A DNA stretch of 64,000 nt from an uncultured Candidatus Saccharibacteria bacterium (GTDB lineage Bacteria > Patescibacteriota > 4484-211 > JAGQKX01). The stretch is from NCBI GenBank assembly GCA_964392315.1, contig CAYMOT010000002.1, positions 41,234 to 105,233 of the forward strand, written 5' to 3'. How positions within the stretch are numbered: the first letter of the stretch is position 1; each line of letters starts with the position of its first letter. The position numbers were made by a program, and so were the translations under genes. Of the stretch, positions 6,030-62,684 are shown piece after piece. The notes beneath the pieces were generated by a model that was not told the DNA's origin, made no database searches, and was given only the letters and a program-made list of their open reading frames with translations.

Positions 6030-6842
6030 ATGTCACGTCGTAGTCAATTCTTCCTCAGTTCTATTTTGATCATCTTGTGTTTTCCCGTAATAGGGCAGGT
6101 AGTTGGACGTCTTGGGGATATGCCTGTTGCGCTCAGTATTGGTATCTGGGCAGTAGCGAGTCTTGTATTATTTCTATATGTACTCGAGAAAAAGTATACA
6201 TTTCCTGAGCAACTCATTTTTGCCATTATTCCGTTTTTATGCGTCATGCTGGTTGCTACGCTTGGGCTCCAATTTAACATGTTCGCGGTATATCCCATTT
6301 CAGCACTGTGGGTTCTGTATTATGCAATAAGTGTAATCAGTATGTATTTTTTGTTTCTCGCACTCAATATTGTCAATGCTGCGACTGTGCGGACTGTTCC
6401 ATTGTTAAAGGCAGCCCAGACATCAATCTTGGCTATCAGTCTTCTTCTTGCGGTCGCATGGGCATTGTATGTGCAGTATGTGTTGCGTTCGCCAATCATC
6501 GCTGCATGGAGCTGGTTTATTTTTTCATACCTTCTTAGCTTAGCAGTCATTTATTTGGGACAAATTGAGGTAGTACGTGAGTTTACCGCAGTGGTAAAAG
6601 TCCCTCTGATAGAGTCGGGGATAATAGCACTTCTACAAGCATATACCGTTTTTATTACCGCAAGTTGGCAAATGAGCGTATCGATTCGTGTCATATATTG
6701 GGTGTCGTCCCTCGCCACATTCACGATGATTGTACGGGCAAGAAGGCAACGAAGTTTAACACGTAAGTTTGTGCGGGATTTTATGTTGCTACAATGGATT
6801 ATTTTTGCCGCGGTGCTTATTATTGGCCTGCGTGCCATATAA
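6030..6842 (+). CDS. hypothetical polytopic membrane protein (about 8 TM helices)
   Basis: 270-aa ORF that is almost entirely hydrophobic helices. It sits immediately downstream of the T4CP/coiled-coil pair. Confidence 0.5.
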   Translation: MSRRSQFFLSSILIILCFPVIGQVVGRLGDMPVALSIGIWAVASLVLFLYVLEKKYTFPEQLIFAIIPFLCVMLVATLGLQFNMFAVYPISALWVLYYAISVISMYFLFLALNIVNAATVRTVPLLKAAQTSILAISLLLAVAWALYVQYVLRSPIIAAWSWFIFSYLLSLAVIYLGQIEVVREFTAVVKVPLIESGIIALLQAYTVFITASWQMSVSIRVIYWVSSLATFTMIVRARRQRSLTRKFVRDFMLLQWIIFAAVLIIGLRAI

Positions 6843-7457
6843 AGAGCAGGGAAGAGGGGAGAAGGACCCTATAAAACTCGGATAGTGTATAGCGGTGTAT
6901 ATTGAAAAGTAAGCATAAGTTATAAAACTATAGGTTATTAATAATTATAGGGTAATTGTCGTCATGTGGATAACTCAACTGCTAATAGGGGGTTAGTGGA
7001 GACGTTCTGAGAGGGGGTCCTTCCCTCGGTCCGAGAGGGGCTTTTTAGGCCGTTTTATACCAATAAAATGGAGCACTACACGAAATATTACAAAAAATAA
7101 AAACCTATTATTCCCGACTTGTGGGTGCCTGGCAAAAATTCATTGAAAAGCGGGAAATCGACATATAACGTCGCTAATCATACAATTCACGACGTTGTGA
7201 ACATTGCTTTTCTTCTACTCCCCCTCGCACGTGTCAACGAATAAATATGTATATATCCAAATAAACTAATAAGCTTATTAGTTTTTATTCCTCATTTGTG
7301 TATTGGTTTATTATAAATTTGAAATTTGTCATTTTTCCCCTCTCCCCCTCCCCTACCTCAAATAATAAACAAATCCGCCAGCTGGCGGAACAAATAAACT
7401 AATAAGCAAATTTATAAGAACATTTGCTTATTTGTAGTATTTGCTTATTATCTATAT

Positions 7458-8467: not shown

Positions 8468-10795
8468 ATGAACTTTGTAACGAAGCTCGTACGCTATCCC
8501 ATTTGGTTTTATAAAGATGGGTTCCAGTTTTGGATCCGATTTTTTCCCAGGACAATAACGCTGATTGCGGACATGATGGGTATAAAACCTATTTTTAAGC
8601 ATTTTCTGTCGCCTTTCCGCAAAGATACATCACCCGTTGGGTATGGCATTGGAATTTTTATACGGCTTGTGTACGGTGGAGCGGGTATTATTGCCGTTGT
8701 TGTGGCCTTTTTTGGACTTATTGGTGCAATGTTGTTTTATTTCTCCATTCCACTCTTTGGGTTTTTGTTGATCATATCGATATCTGATTACACCTGGCCG
8801 AATATCTTAGGGGTGGTGATTTTGATAGCACCACTCGTGTTCTATATCTTTTTTGTAGCGTTAAGAAATCCCAGACTTACCAAAGACGGTTATCGAGTAG
8901 ACTGGGAGCGGGATGTGATGAAGCGGCTGCAGCTCAATCCTGAGGGTGCAATTGCCGCAAAAGAGCATGGTGATTTTGAGCAATTTTTAAAAGAGCGCGG
9001 ATTAACATTAGTTGATTATGAAATTGTTCGGCAGTGGGTTGCACATCAACGCTGGCTTCGTGAAAACTGGAAATACTGGCAGGATGGGCATTATAAGCGG
9101 TTTGTGGGTACAAACCTTGGGTGGGTTTCTGGGTTTATGCGTGAAGCGAAGTATTTTACAAAAAATTTGACGCAGGATCTTCCCCGCCGAAAAGTATACG
9201 AATGGCAAGGTTTGGATCAAATAATCGAGCGCATTTTGGCTGTTCTGGTGCGGGATACGCACAACAACGTGCTTCTGGTTGGTGATTCTGGGGTAGGGAA
9301 GACCTCGGTGGTATACCAAATCGCAAAAGTCATGAATGAGCGTGGTGGTTATCAAGTGATTGACCTAAATATCGCAGGTATGCTTGCGGGCAGTGGGCAT
9401 GAGGGTGAGTTTGAACGACGATTTATAAAAGCGATGCAGGAATTTCGCAATGCCGAGATTATTTTAGTAATTGAAGACATAGAAAGGCTGGTTTCTGGTG
9501 GAGTTGCACAATATTTTTACCCAGTTTTGGACGAGGCGGACTTCCCTATTATTGCTACAACAACTCCTAAAAGTTTGCGGGACGTGCTTGACCGTGAAAC
9601 GAAATTTTTAAATGCGTTTGAGAAAATTCCTGTAGAGGAACCAGATATTCCTGATGTCCTTTTTATATTGCAGGAGAAAGTCAAGGAATTTGAACGACGG
9701 TACGGTGTCTTTATCACGCATCAAGCACTCAAAGCGACCGTAGAAATCGCGGACAGATATATTGTTGATAAAGCATTCCCTTCTAAAGCCATTGATTTGC
9801 TCGATGAGGCGTGTGCATCAGTGGCAAACGGCAGATTTGAATCAGATAAGCAAAAAACAATTCAGGCAACACACATTGAACAAATGGTGAGCGAGATGAC
9901 CGGTGTCTCATTGGGTGAGGTGACCGAAAATGAGCAAGATAAGCTATTACAACTTGAGCAACTGTTGCATGGATTTATTATTGGCCAGGATGATGCAGTA
10001 CAGGAAATTGCTGCCGCGATGCGGCGTGCGCGTTCTGGACTCAAGTCCGACGAGCGCCCGATCGGGTCTTTCTTGTTTGTCGGTCCGACTGGTGTAGGTA
10101 AGACGCTTACTGCAAAGGTATTTGCTCAGGTATATTTTGGAGATCGCGAGAAAATGGTGCGGTTTGATATGAGTGAGTACTCAGAATTTGGGATGACGGA
10201 ACGATTTTTAGATCGAATTAGCGATCAAGTGCGTTCTACTCCTTTTACGGTACTACTTCTTGATGAGTTTGAAAAAGCGGACCAAAAGATTCATAACCTC
10301 TTTTTGCAGATATTGGAAGATGGCCGTGCTACTGACACACAAGGCAATGTCGTTGATTTCAAAAACACCGTTATTATCGCAACAAGCAATGCTCAAAATG
10401 TTGAGCAAGCTTTTAGTCCAGAATTGCGCAATCGCTTCGATGGGATCGTGACATATAAGCCGCTTAATCCCGATCAGATACTTGAGGTTGTCCGGCTTGA
10501 ATTAGGAGAATTGGGTAATAAGCTGTACGAGAAGGAAATTTCGGTTACCTTCTCCCCTACCCTCATTCAGGCGGTAGCGCAACTTGGATACGACCCCAAA
10601 ATGGGCGGACGACCTATACGCAGAGCTATTCAAGATAATATAGAGAATCCTCTTGCAGATGCACTGATCAAAGAAGACATTCACGCAGGTGATTCAATTT
10701 ATCTGGATTGGGAAAATGACCACCTGGTGATAAAAAATGAGGTTCCCGTCTCCCCTGCCCCTGACCAGCCAGCGGAGGGTGAGGTGCAGGTATAA
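8468..10795 (+). CDS. Clp/Hsp100-family double AAA+ ATPase (ClpB/ClpC-like) with an N-terminal multi-TM domain in place of the Clp N domain
   Basis: D1 Walker A LLVGDSGVGKTS. The D2 signature GQDDAVQEIAAAMRRARSGLKSDERPIGSFLFVGPTGVGKT...LLLDEFEKA...VIIATSN matches ClpB/ClpC D2. The first ~130 aa form 3-4 hydrophobic helices. Confidence 0.75.
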   Translation: MNFVTKLVRYPIWFYKDGFQFWIRFFPRTITLIADMMGIKPIFKHFLSPFRKDTSPVGYGIGIFIRLVYGGAGIIAVVVAFFGLIGAMLFYFSIPLFGFLLIISISDYTWPNILGVVILIAPLVFYIFFVALRNPRLTKDGYRVDWERDVMKRLQLNPEGAIAAKEHGDFEQFLKERGLTLVDYEIVRQWVAHQRWLRENWKYWQDGHYKRFVGTNLGWVSGFMREAKYFTKNLTQDLPRRKVYEWQGLDQIIERILAVLVRDTHNNVLLVGDSGVGKTSVVYQIAKVMNERGGYQVIDLNIAGMLAGSGHEGEFERRFIKAMQEFRNAEIILVIEDIERLVSGGVAQYFYPVLDEADFPIIATTTPKSLRDVLDRETKFLNAFEKIPVEEPDIPDVLFILQEKVKEFERRYGVFITHQALKATVEIADRYIVDKAFPSKAIDLLDEACASVANGRFESDKQKTIQATHIEQMVSEMTGVSLGEVTENEQDKLLQLEQLLHGFIIGQDDAVQEIAAAMRRARSGLKSDERPIGSFLFVGPTGVGKTLTAKVFAQVYFGDREKMVRFDMSEYSEFGMTERFLDRISDQVRSTPFTVLLLDEFEKADQKIHNLFLQILEDGRATDTQGNVVDFKNTVIIATSNAQNVEQAFSPELRNRFDGIVTYKPLNPDQILEVVRLELGELGNKLYEKEISVTFSPTLIQAVAQLGYDPKMGGRPIRRAIQDNIENPLADALIKEDIHAGDSIYLDWENDHLVIKNEVPVSPAPDQPAEGEVQV

Positions 10796-11027
10796 ACATA
10801 TGAATGAAAAAGGAGGGTATCCATTTCCAACAGACATTAAGGATAAGCAAGATGTAACTGAAGGAGCTTTTGCAATTGTTAAAGAGTTTTCTCATCATCC
10901 TGAATGGATTGTTGGTGGAGAAATGGCAAGTTTGAAGAAATGCCGCAGCTGTAGAGTATTATCTCGATGGGAGACTGAATCTTATTTTTGATAGTAGTTG
11001 AGATAAGAGTGAAAAATGGAAGTGAAA

Positions 11028-11190
11028 AGAAAAAGGCCGAAGGGTTCGACCTTCCGGCCTTGCGCGCGTATAGAAGTGGCAGCCAAATGGTGCGCCTGGG
11101 GCGAATGGGCTGGTCTCGCTGACCGCCTTGCGTCTGGCCCCGGCAGCTGTTGCCGCCACTCCTGGGGGTGTGAATCCCCCGTTACAGTTT
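11028..11190. ncRNA. candidate structured RNA (unclassified; SRP RNA, tmRNA fragment or other)
   Basis: A ~160-nt island of ~60% GC in an AT-rich genome. It has several hairpins (GGCCGAAGGGTTCGACCTTCCGGCC; GGGGGTGTGAATCCCCC, which looks like a T-arm). The six-frame ORFs across it are low-complexity Ala/Arg artefacts. Confidence 0.3.
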
Positions 11191-11402
11191 GTCAAATTTT
11201 TTCTTCACAGTCCTCCATGAAGAGGGTAAACATACTAGGTTTGAAATTTGATCTCCACTTGTGGCCAGCAAGTTTCAATTGATCTAGTACCCCTAATAAA
11301 CAACTGCACATACTATAAGACATTAGGTGTCAATGGTAATTTTCTGGAGTGTTTTTGTATGTTGACTAAACAGCTAACGGTGGTTTGTGTCAGTAAATTG
11401 TG

Positions 11403-14018
11403 TTATTCAGAGGTCTCTTCCTTCTCAATCGCAGCGGCTGAGGCGACGGTGTCATCTTTATCAAGCTTAATGATATGCACGCCCTGTGTATGGCGCCCAA
11501 GTACTGGTACCGTATTAAACGGCAAGCGGATAATTTGGCCTTGTGAAGAGACAATGAGAACGTCCTCTACACGCTCGGGGTGCAGTACGGAGGCAATTTG
11601 GAGCTTGCCTGTCTTTTCGGTAACCTTTGCGGTGAAAACTCCCTGGCCTCCCCTACCCTGTTGTTGGTATTCTGTCAGTGGTGTCGTCTTGCCATACCCT
11701 TTTTCACTTAATGTGAAGAGTACGTGTGTATGTGTGGGATGATTTCTTAGAACAGACATCTGGATAGTTTCATCACCTGCTTTTGTTCTAATTCCGATAA
11801 CACCTCGGGTAGCGCGGCCTGTTTCGCGGACATCCTCCTCTGAGAACCTAATGCATTTACCGTTTTGAGTTATGATGATGAGATCATCATTGCCTGTTGT
11901 GGGTTGTACTGAGAGGAGTTCGTCATCATCTGATAGAACAATTGCGATGAGCCCTGATTTTCTAATATTTTGATACTCTGGCAGTGCGGTGCGTTTAATA
12001 AACCCGTGTTTAGTGCCAAAGGCCAAATACTTATACTCATCCTTCGTATGATCGAGTCGTACAATACTGGTGACTTTTTCATTGCTCTCAAGTTGCAGAA
12101 GGTTAACTATTGCAGTTCCCCGTGCGGTGCGACTAGCCTCCGGGATTTCATACACTCGCGTCGTAAACACCCTACCCGTATTTGTAAAATACATCATAGT
12201 ATCAAGCGTTGAGGCAGTGATCATTTCTTGAACTACGTCCTCTTCCTTGAGATTTGACATTTTTACGCCTTTCCCTCCCCTACCCTGTGTTCTAAAACTC
12301 AATGGACTGACGCGCTTGATATAGCCGCTCTTCGAAAGCATCACGATGGTATCTTCGTTTTTGACTAGGTCATCATCGGTGAGTTCGCCAGGTGCGCGTT
12401 TAAAAATTTTGGTACGGCGCTCGTCCGCGTAGTTGTCACGCAATGCTATAAGCTCATCCTTGACAGTATTTAATATGTTCTGAGGAGAGGTAAGAGTTTG
12501 TTCAATTTTGCTGATAATGGCCATTATTTCAGCGAGTTCGTCAAGTATTTTTTGCCGTTCAAGGGCAGAGAGCTTTTTAAGTTGCATGTCCAAAATTGCG
12601 TTCGCCTGGATCTCACTAAGTCCAAATCGTTCCATCAACTGCGTGCGTGCCTCAGCGGTATCTTTACTTTTCCGGATTAACTCAATTATCTCGTCGAGAT
12701 TATCCAATGCGATCTTTAAGCCCTCTAAGATGTGTCCGCGATATTTGGCCTCGAGTAATTCGTTGGTTAGACGCCGTATCGTTACTATTTGACGGTGCTT
12801 GAGATATTCTATGAGCAGTGATTTCAATGGTAATGTTTTTGGTTCATCGTCTACGAGCGCGACCATGTTTGCATTAAATGCTCGTTGCATGCCTGAGTAT
12901 TTATACAGTTGATTGAGGGTTTTTTGAGGATTTGCTGATGATTTCAGATCTATCACAATCCGCATACCATCGCGGTCAGATTCATCACGTAAGTCAGAAA
13001 CATCGTCGATTTTGCCGTCTTTGTGAAGTTGTGCAATCTGCGCAACAAGCAATGCCTTGTTTTGCTGGAATGGGATTTCCGTAATGATAATGTGAAACTT
13101 ACCGTTTTTACCTTCTTCAATTTCTGCCTTCGCGCGCATCAGGATGCGACCGCGGCCTGTCGCATATGCCTGGATAATATCTTTTTGGTTATAAATGCTT
13201 CCACCGGTAGGAAAGTCTGGGCCAGGAATATGAGTTATAAGATCTTCAACGGTGAGTGGTGAGGAAATATCAAATTCATGAATCAATACCTTCGCCTGTT
13301 CCAGATTGAAGACGGGGTTATCTTGCAATAGAGCGGCAAATGCCGGAGTGAGGTATGGGACGTGGGTTGCTTCATCAGCATCTTTCGGCAAGATTTCCAT
13401 ACTATCTATCATCGCGACGAGTGCATTAACCGTTTCACCAAGGTTGTGTGGAGGAATTTTTGTGGCCATTCCAACCGCGATACCGTCCGTTCCGTTTACC
13501 ACAAGATTTGGTAGCGCAGCAGGTAAATACGTTGGTTCTTGTCGCGTTGCATCGAAGTTGTCGATGTAGTGGACGGTTGCTTTGTTTAGGTCTCGAAGCA
13601 TCTCCTCTGCAAACTTAGTAAGCCGCGCTTCGGTATATCGCATCGCTGCAGGTGGGTCTCCGTCAATGCTTCCAAAATTCCCTTGCCCGTCTACCAGCGT
13701 GTATCGCATGCCCCAGTCTTGCGCCATATTGACCAGTGTTGGGTAGACGATACTTTCTCCGTGTGGGTGATAATTGCCTGAGGTATCACCGGCGATTTTT
13801 GCACATTTTCTATATCCGCCGGTCGATGACAGGTTGAGGTCGTTCATTGCAACGAGTATGCGTCTTTGTGATGGTTTGAGCCCATCGCGCACGTCAGGTA
13901 ATGCACGGCCGACAATAACGCTCATCGCGTAGTCTTGGTAGTTGTCTTTCATTTCGGCGGTGATGGGTCGGTTCATCACCATTCCGTAGTCAGTTTTTAG
14001 AATTGTTTCATCGTTCAT
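11403..14018 (-). CDS. gyrA: DNA gyrase subunit A
   Basis: AMSVIVGRALPDVRDGLKPSQRRIL and YHPHGESIVY motifs. 871 aa with C-terminal beta-pinwheel repeats. Lies directly downstream of gyrB. Confidence 0.95.
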   Translation of the reverse strand: MNDETILKTDYGMVMNRPITAEMKDNYQDYAMSVIVGRALPDVRDGLKPSQRRILVAMNDLNLSSTGGYRKCAKIAGDTSGNYHPHGESIVYPTLVNMAQDWGMRYTLVDGQGNFGSIDGDPPAAMRYTEARLTKFAEEMLRDLNKATVHYIDNFDATRQEPTYLPAALPNLVVNGTDGIAVGMATKIPPHNLGETVNALVAMIDSMEILPKDADEATHVPYLTPAFAALLQDNPVFNLEQAKVLIHEFDISSPLTVEDLITHIPGPDFPTGGSIYNQKDIIQAYATGRGRILMRAKAEIEEGKNGKFHIIITEIPFQQNKALLVAQIAQLHKDGKIDDVSDLRDESDRDGMRIVIDLKSSANPQKTLNQLYKYSGMQRAFNANMVALVDDEPKTLPLKSLLIEYLKHRQIVTIRRLTNELLEAKYRGHILEGLKIALDNLDEIIELIRKSKDTAEARTQLMERFGLSEIQANAILDMQLKKLSALERQKILDELAEIMAIISKIEQTLTSPQNILNTVKDELIALRDNYADERRTKIFKRAPGELTDDDLVKNEDTIVMLSKSGYIKRVSPLSFRTQGRGGKGVKMSNLKEEDVVQEMITASTLDTMMYFTNTGRVFTTRVYEIPEASRTARGTAIVNLLQLESNEKVTSIVRLDHTKDEYKYLAFGTKHGFIKRTALPEYQNIRKSGLIAIVLSDDDELLSVQPTTGNDDLIIITQNGKCIRFSEEDVRETGRATRGVIGIRTKAGDETIQMSVLRNHPTHTHVLFTLSEKGYGKTTPLTEYQQQGRGGQGVFTAKVTEKTGKLQIASVLHPERVEDVLIVSSQGQIIRLPFNTVPVLGRHTQGVHIIKLDKDDTVASAAAIEKEETSE

Positions 14019-16070: not shown

Positions 16071-16232
16071 ACAGAAAAAATAAGCAAATAACCAAATAAA
16101 ACAGAAGTCATTTGCATATCTGCATATTGGATTATTTGCTTATTTTACAAACAAAATGACAACATTGCCATTGTACATTCGAAGACCATTGTAACACTTG
16201 GGTATGATCCGGGCAAAGAGAGCAGTGTTCCG

Positions 16233-16886: not shown

Positions 16887-17090
16887 GATAGGAAATAAAC
16901 AAATACAACAGATGCACATTAGTATTATTTGCGTATTGGTTGTTTACGTTACATTGACTCTCCTACGCCGAAAGTATAGCATGATTAAATAGACGAATAT
17001 GCAAATACTACCAATAAACAAATAAGCAAAATAAGTAGTACTTTGCATATTTATCATTTGCTTATTGGCTTATTTGTATATTAATTCCCA

Positions 17091-19885: not shown

Positions 19886-19974
19886 TTAATAAACAAATAT
19901 GCATATAAACAAATATGCAAATAGGATGACATCTGCTTATTTGTAGAATTTGACTATTTGTTTATTTTCCCTTC

Positions 19975-32987: not shown

Positions 32988-33046
32988 AGGTAGGAATAAT
33001 ATACAAATAAGAAAATATGCAAATAGAATTCTGAATTAAATAGTTA

Positions 33047-37553: not shown

Positions 37554-37807
37554 ATGTGAGATTGTACCAAGCAGGCTTGATACGCTGTGTAGGGATGTTA
37601 CGTCGTGTACTTAAATGTAGAGAAGTACAGATAAAATAGGCATGAGAACCATGCTAATTGAAATAATTATAGCGAGTACGAGGAATATTTTGTGATGTCT
37701 TCTGAAAAACTTGAGCATACTCAAATTGTAATCAACAAATAATCAAATAGGCAAATATACAAATGAACGAAAAAACCGGTCTGCCGACAAACAAGCAATA
37801 ACCTAAT

Positions 37808-38995: not shown

Positions 38996-39127
38996 GCAGT
39001 TATTGTAACATGGGAGAAATAAACCAATATACCAATACGCAAATAAGCAAATATGCAAATATGCAAATGAAAAACGATTTGCTTATTTTCACATTTACTT
39101 GTTTTATTGGTAAAATTACACAATAGT

Positions 39128-48707: not shown

Positions 48708-48860
48708 AAAAATAAAAACCACCTTTGTGTATCGGAGCCCTCGCGGTTCCATCCGATTAGGTGGCTTACTTGTCCCGTTTCGCACGGTGCGTGCAGCTTT
48801 GAGGTTGGTGAGGTCTCATGCAAATGCTGCAATTAACTTAGGCTAAGTATAGAGTAATTA
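48708..48860 (-). promoter_or_regulatory. structured 5' leader of thrS with T-box-like motif and intrinsic terminator/attenuator
   Basis: Minus-strand reading: AUCGGA-UGGAACCGCG-AGGGC-UCCGAU nested in CCACCU...AGGUGG, then UUUUUAUUUUU immediately before the AUG. UGGAACCGCG matches the T-box core (GGGUGGNACCGCG). Confidence 0.35.
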
Positions 48861-48988
48861 ACCAAATATGCAAATAAGCAAATAAATATTGTGTGATATG
48901 CTGTCTTTTGTAATTCAACAGTTATAACTTCAGAGATCGCATTTGCATTGATTGAAAACCGATCCCCTACCCTGTACAATTTCTGTAC

Positions 48989-53067: not shown

Positions 53068-53150
53068 AAAGATTAATTAATAAATAATATAAATATTCAA
53101 ATAAACAAATATGCAAAGTGTTAGCTCTGATTGTAGTCCATATTTGGCTA

Positions 53151-55490: not shown

Positions 55491-55568
55491 TGGTGGGTGA
55501 TACAAGATTCGAACTTGTGACCTCCACCGTGTCGAGGTGGCGCTCTAACCAACTGAGCTAATCACCCA
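55491..55568 (-). tRNA. tRNA-Val (anticodon GAC) with encoded CCA
   Basis: The reverse complement folds as a cloverleaf: acceptor GGGTGAT/ATCACCC, D-arm GCTC-AGTTGGTTA-GAGC, anticodon arm CCACC-TCGACAC-GGTGG (GAC in the centre; position 33 is C, which is unusual), T-arm ACAAG-TTCGAAT-CTTGT, then ACCA. Confidence 0.8.
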
Positions 55569-55619
55569 GGAAGAATAAGCAAATACTACAAATAAACTTG
55601 CCTACCTACGCAGGCAGGT

Positions 55620-56732
55620 CTATTTGCTTATTTCATTCTTGGGCATGTTCCATTCTACCAATTGCCTGATTACCTTGTCACGGCGCATCAGGTATCGCAA
55701 GTGTTCTTTTCGGTCGGGGTCATTGAACAGCTGTTTTGCATTTGGTTCCTTGCTTGCATCAATTTCAGCTTTTACTTCTTCATCAGAAACGCTTATATTT
55801 TCAAGTTCTGCAATCTTTGCCGTTATAAACTCTATAGTATATTCGTGTTCCAGGTCATCTTTCCATTGCTTTTTTAATTCCTCCACTGTAGTTTGCTGTT
55901 TCTTTGAGTAACCTTCTAGGTCTAATCCCATTTTTTCTAGCTCTTCAGTCTTATGTTTCTCCTGGTGCTCTAAATCGTGTTGAATGAGCTTTTTTGGAAG
56001 TGATAAATTAGTCTTTTCTTTCAGTGCATTTAAAACTTCTTGGGTAAATTTATTACCGGATATATAAAAACGCTCGAGGGTTAAATTAGCTTGTAATCGT
56101 TGTGTAAGATCATCGAGATTTTCAGCCCCTAGTGTAATTGCCCATTCGTCATCTGGCTTGTCTTTAGTGTTTGCTAGAGGGGCTTGTTTTTTATGACTGG
56201 TGGCTTTGTCGTTTGCTTCTTCCAAAGTCGTTGCAGTCTCGATTTTCGTGCCTTCTTCCTTAGTGCGCTCTTTCCACGTAGCAAAAAGCTCATCTAATGC
56301 TTTTTGTGTATCTTCGGGCGTGATTGTGGGCTCTTCGTATGTAACGCCGAGGCTTTTATAATCAGGAAGTTCAGGCTCTGGTCGCACTGTTACCACAAAG
56401 ACGAATTCAGGATTTCCCTCCCCTTTCATGAGTGCTTCTTCATTATTAATTTTTATCTGAGGCTGTATAAGAGGAAATATTTTCTCGTCTTGCAATATCT
56501 TCCGGTATGCACCCTCCACTAATTGCTCCAAAGTCTCCTGAAATAATCGGTACTCCCCTACTCTTTTTCTGATTTCATTCACCGGTGCCTTGCCTGGCCG
56601 AAATCCGGGTATATTGATATCACGACCAAGGAGTTCTAACGCAAGGGTTTGAGCAATTTTCGTATCACTTGCGTCGGTCGTTACCGTGAATTCTATCTCG
56701 CAATCAGGTAAGTCTTTTCTGGTGATGTTCAT
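55620..56732 (-). CDS. tig: trigger factor (ribosome-binding and chaperone domains; short)
   Basis: N-terminal ribosome-binding domain with the GFRPGKAP signature loop. 370 aa, which is short, so the PPIase domain may be reduced. Confidence 0.85.
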   Translation of the reverse strand: MNITRKDLPDCEIEFTVTTDASDTKIAQTLALELLGRDINIPGFRPGKAPVNEIRKRVGEYRLFQETLEQLVEGAYRKILQDEKIFPLIQPQIKINNEEALMKGEGNPEFVFVVTVRPEPELPDYKSLGVTYEEPTITPEDTQKALDELFATWKERTKEEGTKIETATTLEEANDKATSHKKQAPLANTKDKPDDEWAITLGAENLDDLTQRLQANLTLERFYISGNKFTQEVLNALKEKTNLSLPKKLIQHDLEHQEKHKTEELEKMGLDLEGYSKKQQTTVEELKKQWKDDLEHEYTIEFITAKIAELENISVSDEEVKAEIDASKEPNAKQLFNDPDRKEHLRYLMRRDKVIRQLVEWNMPKNEISK

Positions 56733-57304: not shown

Positions 57305-57814
57305 ATGATTCCCCTAGAGCAAAGGGTACGTAATCCCGTAAAGATCGATGTCCCCGGTCTTTGTGTACGCACGCTTGTGGATGAGGTGTTTTGCAGGCGT
57401 GGTGTTTTCGTAGTCCCCTTTCGACGAGGGGATTTCATTCCAGAGAGAGGGGATCTCGTTGCAGAGATTTTGATTATCAATGACCAGAGTGTTCCGATTC
57501 CTTTGGTCTGCCTTCGGGTAAAAAGAGAAGGCAATAGGTACTGGTTCGGGCGGATCTTTCGATTGGTCGATTTTTCCGAAAAGGTTCGTCGAGAAGATGA
57601 GCAAGTTCGGTTGGTCGATGAACAAGGTCGAGAGATTCCTAACACTCCAGAAGATCGGCTCGCTCACATTCTGCGAATGCGTGTCCTTCCTCGGAATGAC
57701 GCACAAAAGAAGCAGTGGGCGTATTGGGGTGATGAATATTGGGTAGCTGCTATCTTCAGCGAACTTCGTCGCCTTAAGGTGCAGGCTGTTCGTGCGGTAG
57801 CCTCGAGGAGGTAG
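57305..57814 (+). CDS. hypothetical protein (Arg-rich), GC-rich region
   Basis: RBS AAGGAG 4 nt before the ATG. 169 aa. No family recognised. Confidence 0.45.
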   Translation: MIPLEQRVRNPVKIDVPGLCVRTLVDEVFCRRGVFVVPFRRGDFIPERGDLVAEILIINDQSVPIPLVCLRVKREGNRYWFGRIFRLVDFSEKVRREDEQVRLVDEQGREIPNTPEDRLAHILRMRVLPRNDAQKKQWAYWGDEYWVAAIFSELRRLKVQAVRAVASRR

Positions 57815-57816
57815 CC

Positions 57817-57912
57817 ATGAGTGCGTTTGGCCGGCTTCTATTGGTCTACTTTGCCTTAATGTGCTTGCTTATGGCGGGGATATTTATGCTCGCCAACATC
57901 CTTGGAGGATGA
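57817..57912 (+). CDS. 31-aa hydrophobic micro-protein (MSAFGRLLLVYFALMCLLMAGIFMLANILGG)
   Basis: GGAGG RBS 5 nt upstream. Its stop overlaps the RBS of the next gene. Not in the ORF track because it is under 60 aa. Confidence 0.35.
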   Translation: MSAFGRLLLVYFALMCLLMAGIFMLANILGG

Positions 57913-57913
57913 C

Positions 57914-58453
57914 ATGACGCATCAAGTGGTGTACGCCCCGTATGGGGCGCGGATTGAGATGGAGTTGGATAGCATACCGTTTCGCGTAGAAATGGGCATG
58001 CACGTGCAGGCGGACACGAAGAGTCTGCTAGGACGGCAGGCGGTTCGCTCGTTGCAGGAATGCAAGTTGCAGCCGCAGCTCTTCGTGACCCTCGATTCTC
58101 GCGGGCTTCCCATCGAGCCAGTGCTGCTTTCGCAGCGGCACGAGGTCTACGGTGTCGAGCTTGCGCTCGCGTGGACCACGCAGGCGTCCAGCTTCGTCGG
58201 CTGGGGGCCGCTGATGGCTCCCTGGATCTACGATCCCAGCTTCGACTGGGAACTGCGCGTCAAAGCTTTGGCGCAAGCGATTGCGGTCAAGCTGTTTCCG
58301 ACGGCGAAGTGCGAGTCAGTGTTCACATTTGCGGGCGGCATCATGATCGCCTATGACACAGACTTGCTGCGTTTGACCAATCGTTCGGCGCAGTTTGAAA
58401 TCCAGATGCCTATGCCCGCAGTGGGTGCTTCGGCCGTCGCTGTGACGGCATAG
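57914..58453 (+). CDS. hypothetical protein
   Basis: GGAGGA RBS 4 nt upstream of the ATG (MTHQVVYAPYG...). 179 aa, Ala/Leu-rich, high-GC third positions. Followed by a terminator. Confidence 0.5.
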   Translation: MTHQVVYAPYGARIEMELDSIPFRVEMGMHVQADTKSLLGRQAVRSLQECKLQPQLFVTLDSRGLPIEPVLLSQRHEVYGVELALAWTTQASSFVGWGPLMAPWIYDPSFDWELRVKALAQAIAVKLFPTAKCESVFTFAGGIMIAYDTDLLRLTNRSAQFEIQMPMPAVGASAVAVTA

Positions 58454-58472
58454 AGAGATAGCTGAATGGCAA

Positions 58473-58508
58473 GGCCGACCCGTCTGACGGGCCGGCCTTT
58501 TGTTTTTT
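58473..58508 (+). terminator. rho-independent terminator
   Basis: GGCCGACCCG-TCTGA-CGGGCCGGCC hairpin followed by TTTTGTTTTTT. Confidence 0.75.
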
Positions 58509-58587
58509 ACTCACATTTTCTCAACAAATTCAGATAACCAGCCTGTAAAAGTATCAATGAGCTCTCATTACAAAAAGGCTTATAGTA

Positions 58588-58617
58588 TTGACATGAGGGT
58601 GTAATTTTTGCTATAAT
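58588..58617 (+). promoter_or_regulatory. near-consensus sigma70 promoter (TTGACA-N18-TATAAT)
   Basis: TTGACA at 58588-58593 and TATAAT at 58612-58617, in an AT-rich spacer upstream of the lipoprotein gene. Confidence 0.55.
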
Positions 58618-58687
58618 GCCGCCAGTTTTCGCACCTCCAGTCCCGAGCGGGTCTGGAAGAATTCACAAGCAGAAGATGGAGGTTTCG

Positions 58688-59362
58688 ATGAAAAAGTTCG
58701 GTTTGTTGTTTGTTTTGTTGCTGGCTCTGGCCCTGGCCGCGTGCGGCGGCAACCCGGCGGCCGATACGACCGGCGGCGCGGCCGCGCCGACGGTGGCCCC
58801 CACAGTCACCCCTGCGGAGACGCCGGAGGGGCAGGATCCCCTACTGGCGGCCCCGGTCGGCAACTCTGGGTACGACAACTGCCTCGATCCGTGGGATCTG
58901 GGGCGGGTGCGCGAGGCCTACAAGTCGAAGATAAGTCCGACAGGTTACGCAGGGACGGTCGTCCTGCTCACCTGGACTCGGGAGGCTGGGCCCCAGAACT
59001 TCGATGAGTGCTACACGAACCGGCATGGCCAATTCGTGTTTACCAAGCACGATGTACCCATCACTGAAGAGCTTTACGAGCGTCTGACCGGCGGCCGGAA
59101 CGACCTGACGGTCCTGGCGCCCGTCCACGCTACGCAGGTACCCTCGGGGTGGGAAGCTTCGATGTGGGTGCATGACTATGTTAATGGTTTCATGACCTAC
59201 GAAGAAGTCAACTCCTACACCCTCTGGGCCTTCCAGAACGACGCAGAAGGCTACCAGATGGTCGCCGGCATGGTGGCGGCCGGCCTCATCGGTGCCTTGC
59301 TCGTTCCCGCGTTGCTCGGGGGCCCGATGGTCCCTGACTGCGGCATGAACAGCTGCGGCTAG
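58688..59362 (+). CDS. lipoprotein (lipobox LAAC) with Ala/Pro/Thr linker and a hydrophobic Cys-rich C-terminus
   Basis: MKKFGLLFVLLLALALAAC|GG signal peptide with a GGAGG RBS. The C-terminal MVAGMVAAGLIGALLVPALLGG TM-like segment ends in DCGMNSCG. The ORF track starts at 58616. Confidence 0.6.
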   Translation: MKKFGLLFVLLLALALAACGGNPAADTTGGAAAPTVAPTVTPAETPEGQDPLLAAPVGNSGYDNCLDPWDLGRVREAYKSKISPTGYAGTVVLLTWTREAGPQNFDECYTNRHGQFVFTKHDVPITEELYERLTGGRNDLTVLAPVHATQVPSGWEASMWVHDYVNGFMTYEEVNSYTLWAFQNDAEGYQMVAGMVAAGLIGALLVPALLGGPMVPDCGMNSCG

Positions 59363-59389
59363 AACGGCCGCAAGGAGAGTAACAATATA

Positions 59390-59428
59390 AAAAGACCCCG
59401 CCCTACTGTAGGACGGGGTCTTTCACGT
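59390..59428. terminator. bidirectional terminator between convergent genes
   Basis: AAAGACCCCGCCCTAC-TG-TAGGACGGGGTCTTT, a near-perfect 15-bp palindrome flanked by A/T runs. Confidence 0.7.
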
Positions 59429-59449
59429 TTATGGGTGTAAATAAAAGCG

Positions 59450-59980
59450 TCAAATACTCACAGATAGTTTCTGATATCCAAGTCTTTCCAAATCTGAGGC
59501 AATGTCATTATAAGACTTCCCTGCTAATCTCCCACCTGCGATAAAGTCTTCTTGGGTGACGTCAGCCAAGCAAAAATCCGGTACCACAAAGTTCTCCTTT
59601 TCTTCTTCAGATGAGAACTCAAAATCTACAAGCACTAAGCCTTCCAAAGCATCCGCGAATACATCCACCTCAGCAGCATGCCCGTTGTAATCAAATGAAT
59701 ATCGAAATTTTCGCAATTTCCTAGCAGGAATATTTCTAAATGCAGCGAATTCGTGCTCTTCCAAATCAATAGTATGCTCTTCATGTTGCGATGCGTCTCC
59801 TCTTTCAATAGGAATCTTTTTGACAAAGGTGTATTTGTCGCCACTTTTTCGAATACGAATTCGAGGATGTGTGGCATCTATGGGTAGATACATATCAATA
59901 ATTTCTTTTTTTGTTGCGTGATGAATGTCGGCGGGGATATATTTTGCCAGAAATGTTAATTCAAGTTCTAATTCAGTCAT
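59450..59980 (-). CDS. CYTH-domain protein (CyaB/thiamine-triphosphatase-like triphosphate tunnel metalloenzyme)
   Basis: RIRIRKSGDKYTFVKK, RKFRYSFDYNGHAAEVDVFADALEGLVLVDFEFSSEEE and FVVPDF match CYTH core strands. AT-rich codon usage like the first part of the window. Confidence 0.6.
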   Translation of the reverse strand: MTELELELTFLAKYIPADIHHATKKEIIDMYLPIDATHPRIRIRKSGDKYTFVKKIPIERGDASQHEEHTIDLEEHEFAAFRNIPARKLRKFRYSFDYNGHAAEVDVFADALEGLVLVDFEFSSEEEKENFVVPDFCLADVTQEDFIAGGRLAGKSYNDIASDLERLGYQKLSVSI

Positions 59981-59994
59981 ACTGCCAAGTGTAG

Positions 59995-60024
59995 CACAAA
60001 AAAAGGGACACCCGGCGGGTGTCC
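59995..60024 (-). terminator. rho-independent terminator (minus strand)
   Basis: GGGACACCCGCCGGGTGTCCC hairpin followed by TTTTTTT on the minus strand, between gene 60061-60414 and the CYTH start. Confidence 0.7.
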
Positions 60025-60060
60025 CAGTGGAGCTACTGCTCCTTTGCGTTGTCTCTCAAA

Positions 60061-60414
60061 CTACTGCCGCCGGCGCGCTCCGTGACGGATCTCGTCTAAC
60101 GCATCAGCGCCATCAACGTCATCGGTGGCGATTTCGGTCTTTCCCGTGTGTTGCTCGAGGCCTTCAATGAAGAAGGCGAAGAGCACCAAGTTCGGTTCTG
60201 CGGTTACGATCTGCAGGCTGTAGCCTCCTTCGAAGAAGAAAGGATACACGCCGATATGGTCGAGGAATCGCTCAAGACTCTCAGGGGTGACGATCTTGTC
60301 GTCAGGCCTGAACACGTAGATGAGCCTGTCGCCGACCAGAATTCCCCAGTTATCCGTACCGAAGAAGTTCGTGAGGAGCCTCTGGACGACTTTCAGAATC
60401 TTCGTTTTGCTCAT
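60061..60414 (-). CDS. hypothetical protein
   Basis: 117-aa ORF with high-GC codon usage. No family recognised. Confidence 0.45.
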   Translation of the reverse strand: MSKTKILKVVQRLLTNFFGTDNWGILVGDRLIYVFRPDDKIVTPESLERFLDHIGVYPFFFEGGYSLQIVTAEPNLVLFAFFIEGLEQHTGKTEIATDDVDGADALDEIRHGARRRQ

Positions 60415-60424
60415 AGAACCCTCC

Positions 60425-60787
60425 TTACGGACGATTTATCCAGAATGTCGTGAGGGTGGCGAATAGTGTAAACACCAACCAAATGGTCTGCCACCTCATC
60501 GACTTTCGGTACATTGCGATGATCATCGCCACGTAGGGCACGATGATCAACAGCGCTATTGGCATACCGATCGAATCCACGCTCACGGCGATTATGCCCA
60601 TACTCAGGGCAGTGGCGACCGATACACGAGAATCAAAGTATGCCATACCGATTGCAGAGGACAGCACGAGAAATGCAGCAATGTATGCACCTTGTTCGCT
60701 TCCGGAGAATACATACCCCATCAGAAAAACGAAAAGTGCAAACTTGCAGATGTCTCGATACCCATTACTTTTGTATGTGTTGTCCAT
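60425..60787 (-). CDS. hypothetical membrane protein (3-4 TM)
   Basis: 120 aa with hydrophobic helices. Confidence 0.5.
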   Translation of the reverse strand: MDNTYKSNGYRDICKFALFVFLMGYVFSGSEQGAYIAAFLVLSSAIGMAYFDSRVSVATALSMGIIAVSVDSIGMPIALLIIVPYVAMIIAMYRKSMRWQTIWLVFTLFATLTTFWINRP

Positions 60788-60796
60788 GGGGCACCT

Positions 60797-61105
60797 CTAA
60801 GCAGCTTCCCTCTCTTCTTCGTCCGGGAAGACGAGGAAGGCAAAGATGGTGATTGTCAGCTCACCGATTGCCAGGACGACTGTCTTGCCTGTGGCGAAGG
60901 GAAGGCGTTCGAAGCCCCCATACTCCATAACCGACTCGATCTGCGCTTCGGTCATGGTCCCTTGGACAATGACCATACAGACGTTGCCATCGATGAAGAA
61001 GTGGAAGTCCACTTCATTTTCGATTGCAAAGTCAAAGGCGTAAGGAAGGGTGTCTCTGACGTACTCTTCCTTTTCGTATCTCGTTCCTACGTATCTCCTT
61101 GTCAT
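60797..61105 (-). CDS. hypothetical protein
   Basis: AAGGAG RBS 5 nt before the ATG (MTRRYVGTRYEKEEY...). 102 aa. Preceded on its strand by a hairpin plus T-tract at 61127-61160. Confidence 0.5.
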   Translation of the reverse strand: MTRRYVGTRYEKEEYVRDTLPYAFDFAIENEVDFHFFIDGNVCMVIVQGTMTEAQIESVMEYGGFERLPFATGKTVVLAIGELTITIFAFLVFPDEEEREAA

Positions 61106-61180
61106 TGTTCTCCTTCTTGCATGAAAAAAGGGTGCCGCCACCTGCGCGGCGCGCACCCTCTTGCTAGTTCAGTTGCGACT

Positions 61181-61354
61181 TCACTCGAGATCGTCGATGG
61201 TGAAGAGGTAGAAATCCTCTTCTCTCCACCAATCGCTGAAGTCTTCCACAGCCTGGCCATCAAATGGCAGGCCAAGGAAATCAGCGACTGCATCGATCAG
61301 GTCACGGATGTTCGGAATCCGTGCCTTCGTACCAGTAGTGCATAAACGCAACAT
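61181..61354 (-). CDS. hypothetical small acidic protein (57 aa)
   Basis: ATG preceded by GAGAGAGGAAATAA. Protein MLRLCTTGTKARIPNIRDLIDAVADFLGLPFDGQAVEDFSDWWREEDFYLFTIDDLE. Under the 60-aa ORF-track cut-off. Confidence 0.35.
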   Translation of the reverse strand: MLRLCTTGTKARIPNIRDLIDAVADFLGLPFDGQAVEDFSDWWREEDFYLFTIDDLE

Positions 61355-61450
61355 TTATTTCCTCTCTCAGTTGGTGAGCCCGCAAAGGCTCAGTTGTTTG
61401 AAATTGGTGCCGCCCATAGGCGGCGGCACCATACAGCTTACTTCAGACTG

Positions 61451-61687
61451 CTACTCGGGCATGCCATCGAAAGGCAAGTCCCAATCGCCACCCATCCAGA
61501 TATTCGGATAATCTGATGTGGGGCACTGGGCAGCCTTCACGGCGGTGGTACCAGCATTCTCGGTCCCGACGATCTCGATGGTAACGTTGTCAGGGGAAAC
61601 GCCCAGCAGCTGCGCAACTTGCTGCAACAGCCTGCCAGTATCGCCCCAGTACACTATCCTATCTGCCCGAATTACGATATCTGTCAC
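61451..61687 (-). CDS. hypothetical 78-aa protein (GTG start)
   Basis: GAGGAGG RBS 5 nt before the GTG. VTDIVIRADRIVYWGDTGRLLQQVAQLLGVSPDNVTIEIVG... The longer ATG-initiated ORF to 61810 has no RBS. Confidence 0.4.
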   Translation of the reverse strand: MTDIVIRADRIVYWGDTGRLLQQVAQLLGVSPDNVTIEIVGTENAGTTAVKAAQCPTSDYPNIWMGGDWDLPFDGMPE

Positions 61688-61755
61688 AGTGTCCTCCTCA
61701 AACTGGTGTGTCCTCCGTGCCCGGAGGACACGGAGGACATGCGCATGTTCGACGC

Positions 61756-62067: not shown

Positions 62068-62120
62068 CTTTGCTCCTTTTTGGGTGTGACCTCGCCGGCT
62101 ATCCGGCGAGGCCACCTAGG

Positions 62121-62683: not shown

Positions 62684-62684
62684 C

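What the first reader, a model, noticed from the sequence alone, without database searches (positions are those of the whole stretch)
11028..11190. Isolated ~160-nt GC-rich island (~60% GC) with multiple hairpins between the clp-like gene and gyrA: candidate structured ncRNA
In AT-rich genomes, stable RNAs stand out as GC-rich islands. This one contains GGCCGAAGGGTTCGACCTTCCGGCC (a 9-bp stem) and GGGGGTGTGAATCCCCC (a T-arm-like 5-bp stem with a 7-nt loop). It also has a segment, GAAGUGGCAGCCAAAUGG, with loose similarity to the SRP RNA domain IV region (GGAAGCAGCCAAGG). The overlapping ORFs are low-complexity artefacts.
Basis: partly seen in the sequence, partly recalled or inferred. Interest (0 to 1): 0.5.

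Follow-up and report, generated by a model that had tools for sequence, protein, structure and literature searches.

The report
Strain-variable small RNA gene after gyrA
The GC-rich island is real and is the hairpin-and-terminator half of a roughly 280-nt candidate small RNA gene, in no known family, that sits just after gyrA in a few uncultured bacteria of the WWE3 candidate division and is swapped or lost between closely related strains.

Summary
Window 11028-11190 is 63% GC in a 43% GC background, the only such island in the first 57 kb, and all three quoted motifs are present.

It is a candidate structured RNA, but on the minus (gyrA) strand. The flagged island is only its 3' half: hairpin HP1, a 92-nt GC-rich hairpin HP2, and an intrinsic terminator HP3 with a U-run.

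The whole unit spans about 11305 to 11025. It comprises:
- a sigma70-like promoter;
- a conserved 5' stem-loop domain (P1-P3);
- hairpin P4 with GGAGG in its loop;
- a conserved 8-codon ORF;
- HP1, HP2 and HP3.

I found four alleles, always directly 3' of gyrA. They share this architecture and show a few compensatory changes. Rfam, ARAGORN, metagenome, viral and phage searches found no known family and no other homologues. The SRP and T-arm resemblances are not conserved.

The gene is accessory. Strains with about 98% identical gyrA DNA carry alleles only 38-56% identical, and one sister strain lacks it.

Best reading: a new lineage-restricted small RNA, possibly dual-function. Its function is unknown and its expression is untested.

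The parts
11312..11339 (-). Sigma70-like promoter candidate, TTACCA-16-TATAGT, 9 of 12. A conserved TTGACA box lies at 11328-11333.
   Evidence: The positionally equivalent sites are stronger in the other alleles: L065 TTGACA-17-TACAAT 11/12, L142 TTGACA-18-TACAAT 11/12, L077 TTGATA-18-TACTAT 9/12. The window copy is the weakest. From the conserved TTGACA box, the 17-nt spacing lands on TGTGCA.
11223..11293 (-). Conserved 5' stem-loop domain. P1 is GGGG (11290-11293) with CCCU (11223-11226). P2 is UACUAG (11284-11289) with CUAGUA (11233-11238). P3 is a hairpin at 11257-11273.
   Evidence: Alignments A4 and A6. 91.6-91.7% of cells pair, against 33-54% when partners are slid by 1-3 columns. Three pairs change on both sides. 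Covariance-model hit at window 11179-11299(-), 105.7 bits.
11203..11222 (-). Hairpin P4, CUUCAU/GUGAAG, with GGAGG (11212-11216) in its loop. The 3' strand contains the start codon of the mini-ORF.
   Evidence: Invariant apart from the closing pair in all four alleles. GGAGG is invariant.
11182..11208 (-). Eight-codon ORF, GUG AAG AAA AAA UUU GAC AAA CUG UAA (MKKKFDKL).
   Evidence: The same length and register in all four alleles. Start codon is GUG or AUG, stop is UAA or UAG. Third-position changes are UUU/UUC and GAC/GAU. Codons 4 and 7 change as whole triplets. The frame upstream of the start is not conserved. Translation is inferred, not shown.
11164..11180 (-). HP1, GGGGG-AUUCACA-CCCCC.
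   Evidence: L065 has CGUGGG-UACCCA-CCCACG (a G-C to U-A swap). It is absent from the L077 and L142 alleles.
11072..11163 (-). HP2, a long GC-rich irregular hairpin closed by a 12-bp stem (AGGAGUGGCGGC / GCUGCCACUUCU). Its interior is variable.
Evidence: The closing stem is kept in all four alleles with different sequences (outer stem fully different; inner stem C-G to U-A and G-C to G-U).
11024..11059 (-). HP3, an intrinsic terminator. Stem-loop at 11035-11059 followed by UUUUUCUUUUC at 11024-11034.
   Evidence: for the window, for L065 (14 pairs plus a T-run), for L077 and L142 (10-bp stems plus a U-run). No terminator-like site lies between the gyrA stop and this hairpin.
10800..10991 (+). 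A 63-codon ORF that is a remnant of a 265-aa cassette gene. This is context, not part of the RNA.
   Evidence: Residues 3-38 are 69% identical to the N-terminus of the 265-aa orphan gene of L065 (DNA match). This marks a deletion that brought the RNA terminator next to the clp side.
11403..14018 (-). gyrA, the upstream gene on the same strand (context).

Best explanation
The GC-rich island is the 3' half of an accessory small-RNA gene on the minus strand, directly downstream of gyrA. The proposed transcript runs from about 11305 to about 11025, roughly 280 nt.

Parts of the unit:
- a sigma70-like promoter;
- a sequence-conserved 5' stem-loop domain (P1-P3), about 38% GC in the window;
- hairpin P4, which displays GGAGG in its loop and pairs the start codon of a conserved 8-codon ORF;
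- a GC-rich 3' module: HP1, the long clamp hairpin HP2, and the intrinsic terminator HP3.

Proposed roles, all inferred:
- The 5' domain with the mini-ORF is the functional part. It would be either a regulatory small RNA or a dual-function small RNA whose tiny ORF engages ribosomes.
- The GC-rich 3' module stabilises the transcript and ends transcription.
- HP3 probably also terminates gyrB-gyrA read-through.

What is shown: the conserved architecture, the strand, the position, membership of no known family, and the presence/absence and allele replacement between strains.

What is inferred: transcription from the predicted promoter, translation of the mini-ORF, and any regulatory role.
For: 1. 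Strand and ends. HP3 plus a U-run is a terminator only on the minus strand. Promoter-like boxes sit at the same place in all alleles, 9/12 to 11/12. The helices contain 9 G-U pairs against 3 A-C.

2. Homologues. Four alleles, all immediately 3' of gyrA on its strand: the window; L065 (gyrA 84% aa identity); L073-L075 and L077 (one allele); and L142/L143.

3. Constraint. gyrA DNA is only 73.6% identical between L065 and the other two (window and the L073/L077 allele), and the spacer just after the gyrA stop looks unalignable by eye in the alignments. Yet the 5' domain still aligns at 56-71%.

4. Structure.
- 5' domain: 91.6% of cells pair, against 33-52% in slid controls (the three-allele count gave 91.7% against 38-54%).
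- P2, the HP1 stem (window and L065 only), the HP2 closing stems and HP3 are kept through changes on one or both sides. P3 is a hairpin in all four alleles, but the window's has a different sequence.
- Between the two closest alleles (L077 and L142), the visible differences fall mostly in loops and linkers.
- Fold z-scores are -3.1 (window), -7.6 (L065) and -3.7 (L077).

5. GC content. The 3' half is GC-rich in every allele (63-68%, against 38-50% for the 5' half) (L142 not measured).

6. Mini-ORF. See the parts list.

7. Not coding otherwise. No frame is conserved and there is no Pfam hit.
Against: - There are no expression data.
- Only four alleles exist, two of them similar. Covariation is therefore weak: 3 pairs change on both sides, and 32-34 of 500 shuffles reach the observed values.
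- Folding energy does not separate the strands in L065 and L077.
- The window's promoter match is the poorest (9/12). The window cassette is a deletion remnant, so this copy could be decaying.
- None of 55 long ORFs in the window has GGAGG within 20 nt of its start. GGAGG may therefore not act as a ribosome-binding site in this organism. In the window it also lies only 3 nt from the GUG.
- The RNA is dispensable. Strain L138, which is 98% identical to L065 in gyrB-gyrA, has a 350-aa orphan gene in its place. More distant relatives have only 55-92 nt there.
- No target or partner was identified.
Confidence: 0.6

Rival explanations
1. It is only the structured 3' UTR and terminator of the gyrB-gyrA operon. 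The hairpins protect the mRNA 3' end and stop transcription before the convergent clp gene. There is no independent RNA function.
For: - No terminator lies between the gyrA stop and HP3, so gyrA transcripts should run into it.
- It always lies on the gyrA strand directly after gyrA.
- The HP2 interior is free to vary.
Against: - Relatives end gyrA within 55-92 nt of AT-rich spacer, with no GC-rich hairpin visible.
- A terminator does not explain the sequence-conserved 130-nt 5' domain, the invariant GGAGG/P4/mini-ORF block, or the 11/12 promoter matches in L065 and L142.
Confidence: 0.15
2. It is a tiny-peptide mRNA or a leader-peptide-type, ribosome-sensing attenuator. Translation of the 8-codon ORF, whose stop codon lies 1 nt before HP1, would control formation of the downstream hairpins and terminator.
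For: - The ORF register, start and stop are conserved, with synonymous third-position changes.
- In L142 the G-to-A change keeps a start codon (AUG) while breaking the closing pair of P4.
- GGAGG lies 3-7 nt upstream.
Against: - There is no co-oriented gene downstream to regulate. The window and L142 have a convergent remnant ORF and clp. L065 has a separate 12/12 promoter 70 nt after the terminator. L077 has a convergent 98-aa ORF.
- No conserved antiterminator alternative was found.
- This genome appears not to use Shine-Dalgarno sites.
- Each supporting substitution has a 1/3 to 2/3 chance of occurring without selection.
Confidence: 0.12
3. It is a DNA-level feature of a mobile or recombining cassette, such as an attachment site or element-end hairpins, or a decaying piece of foreign higher-GC DNA. 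It would have no RNA function.
For: - The gyrA-clp gap is a strain-variable slot: 0.6 kb in the window, 3.5 kb in L065, 8.3 kb at about 52% GC with three tRNA genes in L077, and a single 350-aa gene in L138.
- The RNA allele alone is replaced in L142.
- The window cassette is a deletion remnant.
Against: - Exchange end-points differ from case to case: window 11403 and 10794 against L077; window 11419 and 11039 against L142; L065 7601 and 11079 against L138. All lie in or beside conserved flanking sequence, as expected for homologous recombination rather than site-specific recombination.
- No direct repeats flank the islands.
- No integrase, transposase or defence family is found in the cassettes.
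- The helix-preserving substitutions and G-U pairs point to RNA-level constraint.
Confidence: 0.08
4. It is a divergent member of a known housekeeping RNA family that Rfam models miss in these candidate-phyla bacteria: SRP RNA, or 6S, tmRNA or RNase P.
For: Only the loose GGCAGCCAAAUGG resemblance on the plus strand and the rod-like shape of HP2.
Against: - No Rfam hit even at E <= 10. ARAGORN is negative.
- The motif is on the wrong strand and is not conserved.
- The gene is absent from a sister strain at this locus and is replaced by 38-56% identical alleles within one species. Essential housekeeping RNAs do not behave this way.
Confidence: 0.03

Closest known systems
Small RNAs located just after a gene, with their own promoter and a terminator shared with that gene (for example DapZ and MicL in enterobacteria; from my own knowledge)
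   Same: Sits immediately downstream of a protein gene on the same strand. Has promoter-like boxes of its own. One intrinsic terminator probably serves both the mRNA and the small RNA.
   Different: The promoter lies after the gyrA stop rather than inside the gene. No seed or target was identified. The gene is accessory and highly polymorphic. Expression is untested.
Dual-function small RNAs that also carry a small ORF (SgrS/SgrT, RNAIII/hld, SR1/SR1P; from my own knowledge)
   Same: A structured RNA with a short conserved ORF and a Shine-Dalgarno-like motif.
   Different: The ORF has only 8 codons, far shorter than known examples. The host genome seems not to use Shine-Dalgarno sites. Translation is unproven.
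Short leader-peptide attenuators (cat, cmlA and erm leaders of about 8-19 codons; from my own knowledge)
   Same: GGAGG plus a very short ORF, with the start codon held in a hairpin and strong hairpins and a terminator following.
   Different: There is no regulated gene downstream, and no conserved alternative (antiterminator) pairing was found.
Bacterial small SRP RNA (Rfam RF00169)
   Same: A GC-rich rod-like hairpin of about 90 nt in an AT-rich genome, and a loose AGCAGCC-like string.
   Different: The string is on the opposite strand and not conserved. There is no model match. The gene is dispensable and variable between strains.

Membership tests
Bacterial SRP RNA (RF00169 / RF01854) | Scores with the Rfam covariance model (helix 8 with GNRA tetraloop and conserved symmetric and asymmetric loops) | tested here: not met
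   No SRP hit at gathering threshold on the window, nor at E <= 10 on 10800-11450. None on the two contigs scanned (L065 and L073).
Bacterial SRP RNA (RF00169 / RF01854) | The domain IV motif is conserved in homologues and lies on the transcribed strand | tested here: not met
   The motif is on the plus strand, while the terminator, promoter and G-U pairs indicate the minus strand. The equivalent sequence differs in L065, L077 and L142.
Bacterial SRP RNA (RF00169 / RF01854) | Essential, stable single-copy gene within a species | tested here: not met
   Absent from this locus in L138, which is 98% identical to L065 in the flanks. Alleles within the window's species are 38-56% identical. Whole genomes could not be scanned.
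tRNA / tmRNA (T-arm) | Detected by ARAGORN or the Rfam tRNA and tmRNA models; conserved T-loop | tested here: not met
   ARAGORN finds only tRNA-Val at 55491-55567. The HP1 loop is not conserved, and HP1 is missing from two alleles.
6S RNA / RNase P RNA | Rfam model match; 5' and 3' ends paired into one rod with a central bubble (6S), or the P4 core (RNase P) | tested here: not met
   No hits. The predicted fold is a series of separate hairpins.
Intrinsic (Rho-independent) terminator | GC-rich stem-loop immediately followed by a U-run on the transcribed strand | tested here: met
   Stem-loop 11035-11059 plus UUUUUCUUUUC on the minus strand. Equivalent hairpins plus a U-run occur in L065 and in L077 and L142.
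Independently transcribed bacterial small RNA gene | Own promoter upstream and terminator downstream, in an intergenic region, with no conserved protein frame | tested here: met
   Promoter-like sites in all four alleles, the terminator as above, and no conserved long frame. These are consensus matches only.
Independently transcribed bacterial small RNA gene | A discrete transcript is detected | not testable with these tools
   No transcriptome data are available here.
Independently transcribed bacterial small RNA gene | Secondary structure supported by covariation | tested here: inconclusive
   Helices are kept (91.6% paired against 33-52% slid). Only 3 pairs change on both sides in the 5' domain, and 32-34 of 500 shuffles reach the observed values. 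Further swaps occur in HP1, HP2 and HP3. Four alleles are too few.
Leader-peptide transcription attenuator | Short translated ORF upstream of a terminator | tested here: inconclusive
   An 8-codon ORF conserved in register, with GUG/AUG starts and UAA/UAG stops. Translation is untested, and the genome lacks Shine-Dalgarno usage.
Leader-peptide transcription attenuator | A co-oriented regulated gene downstream | tested here: not met
   Downstream genes are convergent or have their own promoter.
Type I toxin-antitoxin locus | Conserved hydrophobic toxin ORF of about 20-60 codons, with an antisense RNA | tested here: not met
   The only conserved ORF has 8 hydrophilic codons. Longer frames are not conserved.
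Site-specific integration site / integron attC | Fixed crossover point, flanking direct repeats or R''/R' core sites, and an associated recombinase in the cassette | tested here: not met
   Exchange end-points vary. No flanking repeats. Cassette ORFs match no integrase or transposase family. By eye, CTGTAAC/GTTACAG does not fit RYYYAAC/GTTRRRY (consensus recalled from my own knowledge).

The most novel reading that the evidence does not exclude
The unit is a self-contained, horizontally exchanged RNA cassette under diversifying or presence/absence selection. It would consist of a micro-ORF-bearing RNA with a conserved scaffold and a variable GC-rich arm, and it would specify something strain-specific, such as immunity or addiction, ribosome engagement through a GGAGG site that is rare in a genome without Shine-Dalgarno sites, or guidance of recombination at the gyrA-clp hot-spot. 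It would not be an ordinary regulator.
Probability: 0.1. Interest if true: 0.65.

Novelty: new member of a known kind. Interest (0 to 1): 0.42.

Why it matters
To my knowledge, few small RNAs have been described in candidate-phyla-radiation bacteria such as the WWE3 division; two literature searches found none for this locus. This locus shows that scanning for GC-rich islands does pick up a genuine RNA-like gene there.

The candidate also has an unusual population pattern. The RNA gene is exchanged as a unit of about 380 bp, or together with larger cassettes, between strains that are otherwise about 98% identical. It carries an 8-codon ORF with a perfect GGAGG in a genome whose genes show none.

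If it is expressed, it would give a handle on post-transcriptional regulation and on flexible-genome dynamics in organisms that cannot be cultured. If not, it is a well-documented example of structured 3'-end DNA in a recombination hot-spot.

Tried and rejected
- **Rfam.** Gathering threshold on the whole window, E <= 10 on 10800-11450, and E <= 5 on L065 and L073. Only chance-level hits at the locus.
- **ARAGORN.** Nothing at the locus.
- **Copies elsewhere in the window or in held loci.** None, by blastn, nhmmer and covariance model R1.
- **Genome-contig scan with gyrA.** The nearest representative genomes are at most 51% identical on the best-matching segment, so this was not useful.
- **C-terminal gyrA fragment search.** No additional close relatives.
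- **Pattern scans for the P4/mini-ORF core.** Zero hits in the metagenome collection with the strict pattern. The loose pattern gave 60 hits that match only the seed. Three viral scans gave zero hits.
- **blastn against phage genomes.** Nothing real.
- **Protein-coding readings.** The 88-, 78- and 43-aa ORFs have no Pfam hit and no conserved frame.
- **Cassette proteins.** No significant Pfam, PHROG or PADLOC family.
- **att-like repeats around the islands.** None. A 15-nt direct repeat between HP2 of L065 and its 329-aa ORF is at chance level.
- **Target search for the conserved single-stranded stretch.** Chance level.
- **Pseudoknot between the mini-ORF region and the P2/P3 internal loop.** Possible in the window and L065 but not in L077, so rejected (by inspection).
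- **L066** could not be used because it has 100 N directly after gyrA.
- **Literature searches.** These gave only general background on the GC-rich intergenic-region approach.

Full report
**Observation.** Window 11028-11190 is 63.2% GC. The background for 163-nt windows over the first 57 kb is 42.9% (sd 4.4), and the next-highest value there is 55.2%. The three quoted strings are present at 11035-11059, 11164-11180 and 11073-11090. The island lies in a 607-nt gap between two convergent genes: a Clp/AAA+-like gene (8468-10795, +) and gyrA (11403-14018, -). The only qualification is that a much larger GC-rich stretch occupies 57.5-64 kb.

**Source organism.** The nearest named gyrA proteins come from candidate division WWE3 and other Patescibacteria. 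The sequence comes from public read-archive assemblies.

**Strand and ends.**
- On the minus strand the 9-bp-stem hairpin is followed by UUUUUCUUUUC, which makes it an intrinsic terminator. On the plus strand it is followed by UUGCGCG.
- The minus strand folds better than shuffles (z = -3.0). The plus strand gives z = -1.6.
- Across the helices proposed below there are 9 G-U pairs against 3 A-C mismatches, which would be the G-U pairs of the other strand.
- No terminator-like site lies between the gyrA stop and this hairpin.

**Known families.** Rfam gives nothing at the gathering threshold, and only chance-level matches at E <= 10 on the 651-nt region. It also gives nothing on the homologous loci. 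ARAGORN finds no tRNA or tmRNA at the locus.

**Homologues.** A gyrA protein search found relatives at 99, 84, 76, 76, 74, 74, 71 and 73% identity. I fetched their contigs. A region homologous to window 11020-11340(-) exists in four allelic forms, always directly after gyrA on the gyrA strand:
- the window itself;
- L065 (gyrA 84% aa identity);
- L073-L075 and L077, which carry one allele (gyrA DNA 97.6-97.8% identical to the window);
- L142/L143 (gyrB-gyrA DNA 98% identical to the window).

More distant relatives have only 55-92 nt of AT-rich spacer between gyrA and the next gene (L069, L070, L076). L066 has 100 N at the spot.

I found no other homologues by any of these routes:
- the rest of the window or any held locus, by nhmmer and a covariance model;
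- two metagenome pattern scans, where the loose pattern gave 60 seed-only chance matches;
- three viral-contig scans;
- blastn against phage genomes.

**Anatomy shared by the alleles (window coordinates, minus strand).**
- Promoter-like boxes. The window has TTACCA-16-TATAGT at 11339-11312 (9/12), L065 has TTGACA-17-TACAAT (11/12), L142 has TTGACA-18-TACAAT (11/12), and L077 has TTGATA-18-TACTAT (9/12).
- A 5' stem-loop domain. P1 pairs 11290-11293 with 11223-11226, P2 pairs 11284-11289 with 11233-11238, and P3 is a hairpin at 11257-11273.
- Hairpin P4 (11203-11222), CUUCAY/GUGAAG, with an invariant GGAGG in its loop.
- An 8-codon ORF (11182-11208).
- HP1 (11164-11180), present only in the window and L065.
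- HP2 (11072-11163), a long GC-rich hairpin with a conserved closing stem and a variable interior.
- HP3 with a U-run (11024-11059).

This half is 63-68% GC in each of the three alleles measured, against 38-50% for the 5' half (L142 not measured).

**Evidence for structure.**
- In the 5' domain, 91.6% of cells form standard pairs, against 33-52% when the 3' partners are slid by 1-3 columns. Three pairs change on both sides, including U-A, G-U and A-U at the first pair of P2 and U-A to C-G at the fourth.
- In the 3' half, the HP1 stem swaps G-C for U-A. The HP2 outer stem is entirely different in sequence but paired in every allele. The HP2 inner stem swaps C-G for U-A and G-C for G-U. The terminator stems are 9-13 bp with different sequences.
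- Between the two closest alleles (L077 and L142), the visible differences fall mostly in loops and linkers.
- Fold z-scores are -3.1, -7.6 and -3.7.
- With four alleles the statistics are only suggestive: 32-34 of 500 shuffles reach the observed values.

**The mini-ORF.** All four alleles have the same 8-codon frame.

| Allele | Codons |
|---|---|
| Window | GUG AAG AAA AAA UUU GAC AAA CUG UAA |
| L065 | GUG AAG AAA GUU UUU GAU UUU CUG UAA |
| L077 | GUG AAG AAA GAA UUC GAU UUU CUG UAG |
| L142 | AUG AAG AAA GAA UUC GAU UUU CUG UAG |

- Variation falls on whole codons 4 and 7, on third positions (UUU/UUC, GAC/GAU), on the stop (UAA/UAG) and on the start (GUG/AUG).
- The G-to-A change in L142 keeps a start codon but breaks the closing pair of P4.
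- The frame upstream of the start is not conserved.
- Against translation: none of 55 long ORFs in the window has GGAGG within 20 nt of its start. In the window the GGAGG lies only 3 nt from the GUG. Each supporting substitution is individually likely by chance.
- I rate translation at about even odds.

**Population behaviour.** The gyrA-clp gap is a strain-variable slot.
- Against L077, homology to the window stops exactly at the gyrA stop and resumes at the clp stop. Between them lies an 8.3-kb, roughly 52% GC island with the RNA allele at its gyrA end, three tRNA genes and orphan ORFs.
- In L142, only about 380 bp are replaced by an L077-like allele, from 16 nt inside gyrA (window 11419) to the 3' half of the terminator (window 11039). 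The right flank, including the 63-codon remnant ORF, matches the window at 95%.
- In L138, which is 98% identical to L065 in the flanks, the slot holds a single 350-aa orphan gene and no RNA.
- The window's 63-codon ORF (10800-10991) is the N-terminal remnant of the 265-aa gene at the clp end of the L065 cassette. The window cassette is therefore a deletion derivative that kept the RNA.
- Allele identities are 56-71% in the 5' domain and 38-49% in the 3' half. gyrA DNA is 97.8% identical within the species and 73.6% between species.
- Exchange end-points differ from case to case and lie in conserved flanking sequence. No flanking repeats exist, and no recombinase or defence family is found in the cassettes. 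This fits homologous replacement, not site-specific insertion.

**Interpretation.** The best-supported reading is an accessory, lineage-restricted small-RNA gene. It has a conserved 5' module (P1-P4 plus the mini-ORF) and a GC-rich structural and terminator module. The terminator probably also ends gyrB-gyrA transcription. It belongs to no described family. The SRP and T-arm readings fail. Function is unknown. I favour a regulatory or dual-function small RNA (confidence 0.6 for the 'RNA gene' statement, with the mechanism inferred).

The rivals are:
- a purely structural gyrA 3' UTR and terminator (0.15);
- a tiny-peptide mRNA or leader-type attenuator (0.12), weakened by the lack of any downstream co-oriented gene;
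- a DNA-level cassette feature or decaying foreign DNA (0.08);
- a missed housekeeping RNA (0.03).

Because this copy has the weakest promoter match and sits in a decayed cassette, the window's allele may be less active than those of L065 and L142.

**Verdict.** This is a real feature and a plausible new small RNA. It is of moderate interest, mainly because of its allele-swapping behaviour and its conserved micro-ORF. Expression data and more alleles are needed.

Noticed in passing
window, many intergenic regions, e.g. 7260-7449, 16079-16144, 16894-17082, 19888-19966, 32998-33025, 37730-37776, 39017-39087, 48859-48885, 53082-53117, 55574-55632: The motif TATTTGYWTATT (up to 1 mismatch) occurs 56 times against 2.6 expected (0 of 100 shuffles reach this). 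It forms head-to-tail arrays with an 8-nt period (unit about ATTTGCWT) on both strands. Arrays often end about 8 nt before start codons, for example at xerC-like 7458 and gyrB 16070. This could be a promoter or regulator-binding array typical of this lineage.
   Followed up: partly
window, starts of 55 ORFs of at least 120 aa: No ORF has GGAGG within 20 nt upstream of its start, so the genome appears not to use Shine-Dalgarno sites. That makes the invariant GGAGG in the RNA's P4 loop stand out.
   Followed up: partly
window 57500-64000: About 6.5 kb at 51-61% GC (apart from one 500-nt bin at 40%), against a genome background of about 43%. It has only short ORFs, mostly with TTG or GTG starts, and no Pfam hits. 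No DNA or translated (tblastx) match to the L077 island. It could be a foreign island, a pseudogene field or an assembly join.
   Followed up: partly
window 10800-10991 (+): This 63-codon ORF is a truncated remnant of a 265-aa orphan gene that is intact in L065 (10239-11036). Residues 3-38 are 69% identical.
   Followed up: yes
L065 8058-8814: A perfect sigma70 consensus promoter (TTGACA-17-TATAAT, 12/12) lies 70 nt after the RNA terminator. About 730 nt without a convincing ORF, and hairpin-rich by eye, then precede a 329-aa orphan gene. This may be a second large non-coding RNA or a long leader. Rfam gives no hit.
   Followed up: no
L077 4722-13008 (same contig as L073): An 8.3-kb island at about 52% GC lies between gyrA and clp in a strain about 98% identical to the window. 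It carries three tRNA genes (6646-7062) and orphan ORFs with no Pfam (three ORFs tested), PHROG (three tested) or PADLOC (seven tested) match.
   Followed up: partly
L138 5127-6179 (also L139-L141): In a sister strain of L065 the gyrA-clp slot holds a single 350-aa orphan gene starting 10 nt after the gyrA stop, with no RNA. The identical gyrA protein is carried on 13 contigs, of which the four contexts shown all have this variant.
   Followed up: partly
L066 7623-7722: Exactly 100 N lie directly after the gyrA stop in an NCBI metagenome-assembled genome. Two other assemblies of the same gyrA (L067, L068) end 21 nt after the stop. Assemblies seem to break at this locus, as expected for a strain-variable region.
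   Followed up: no
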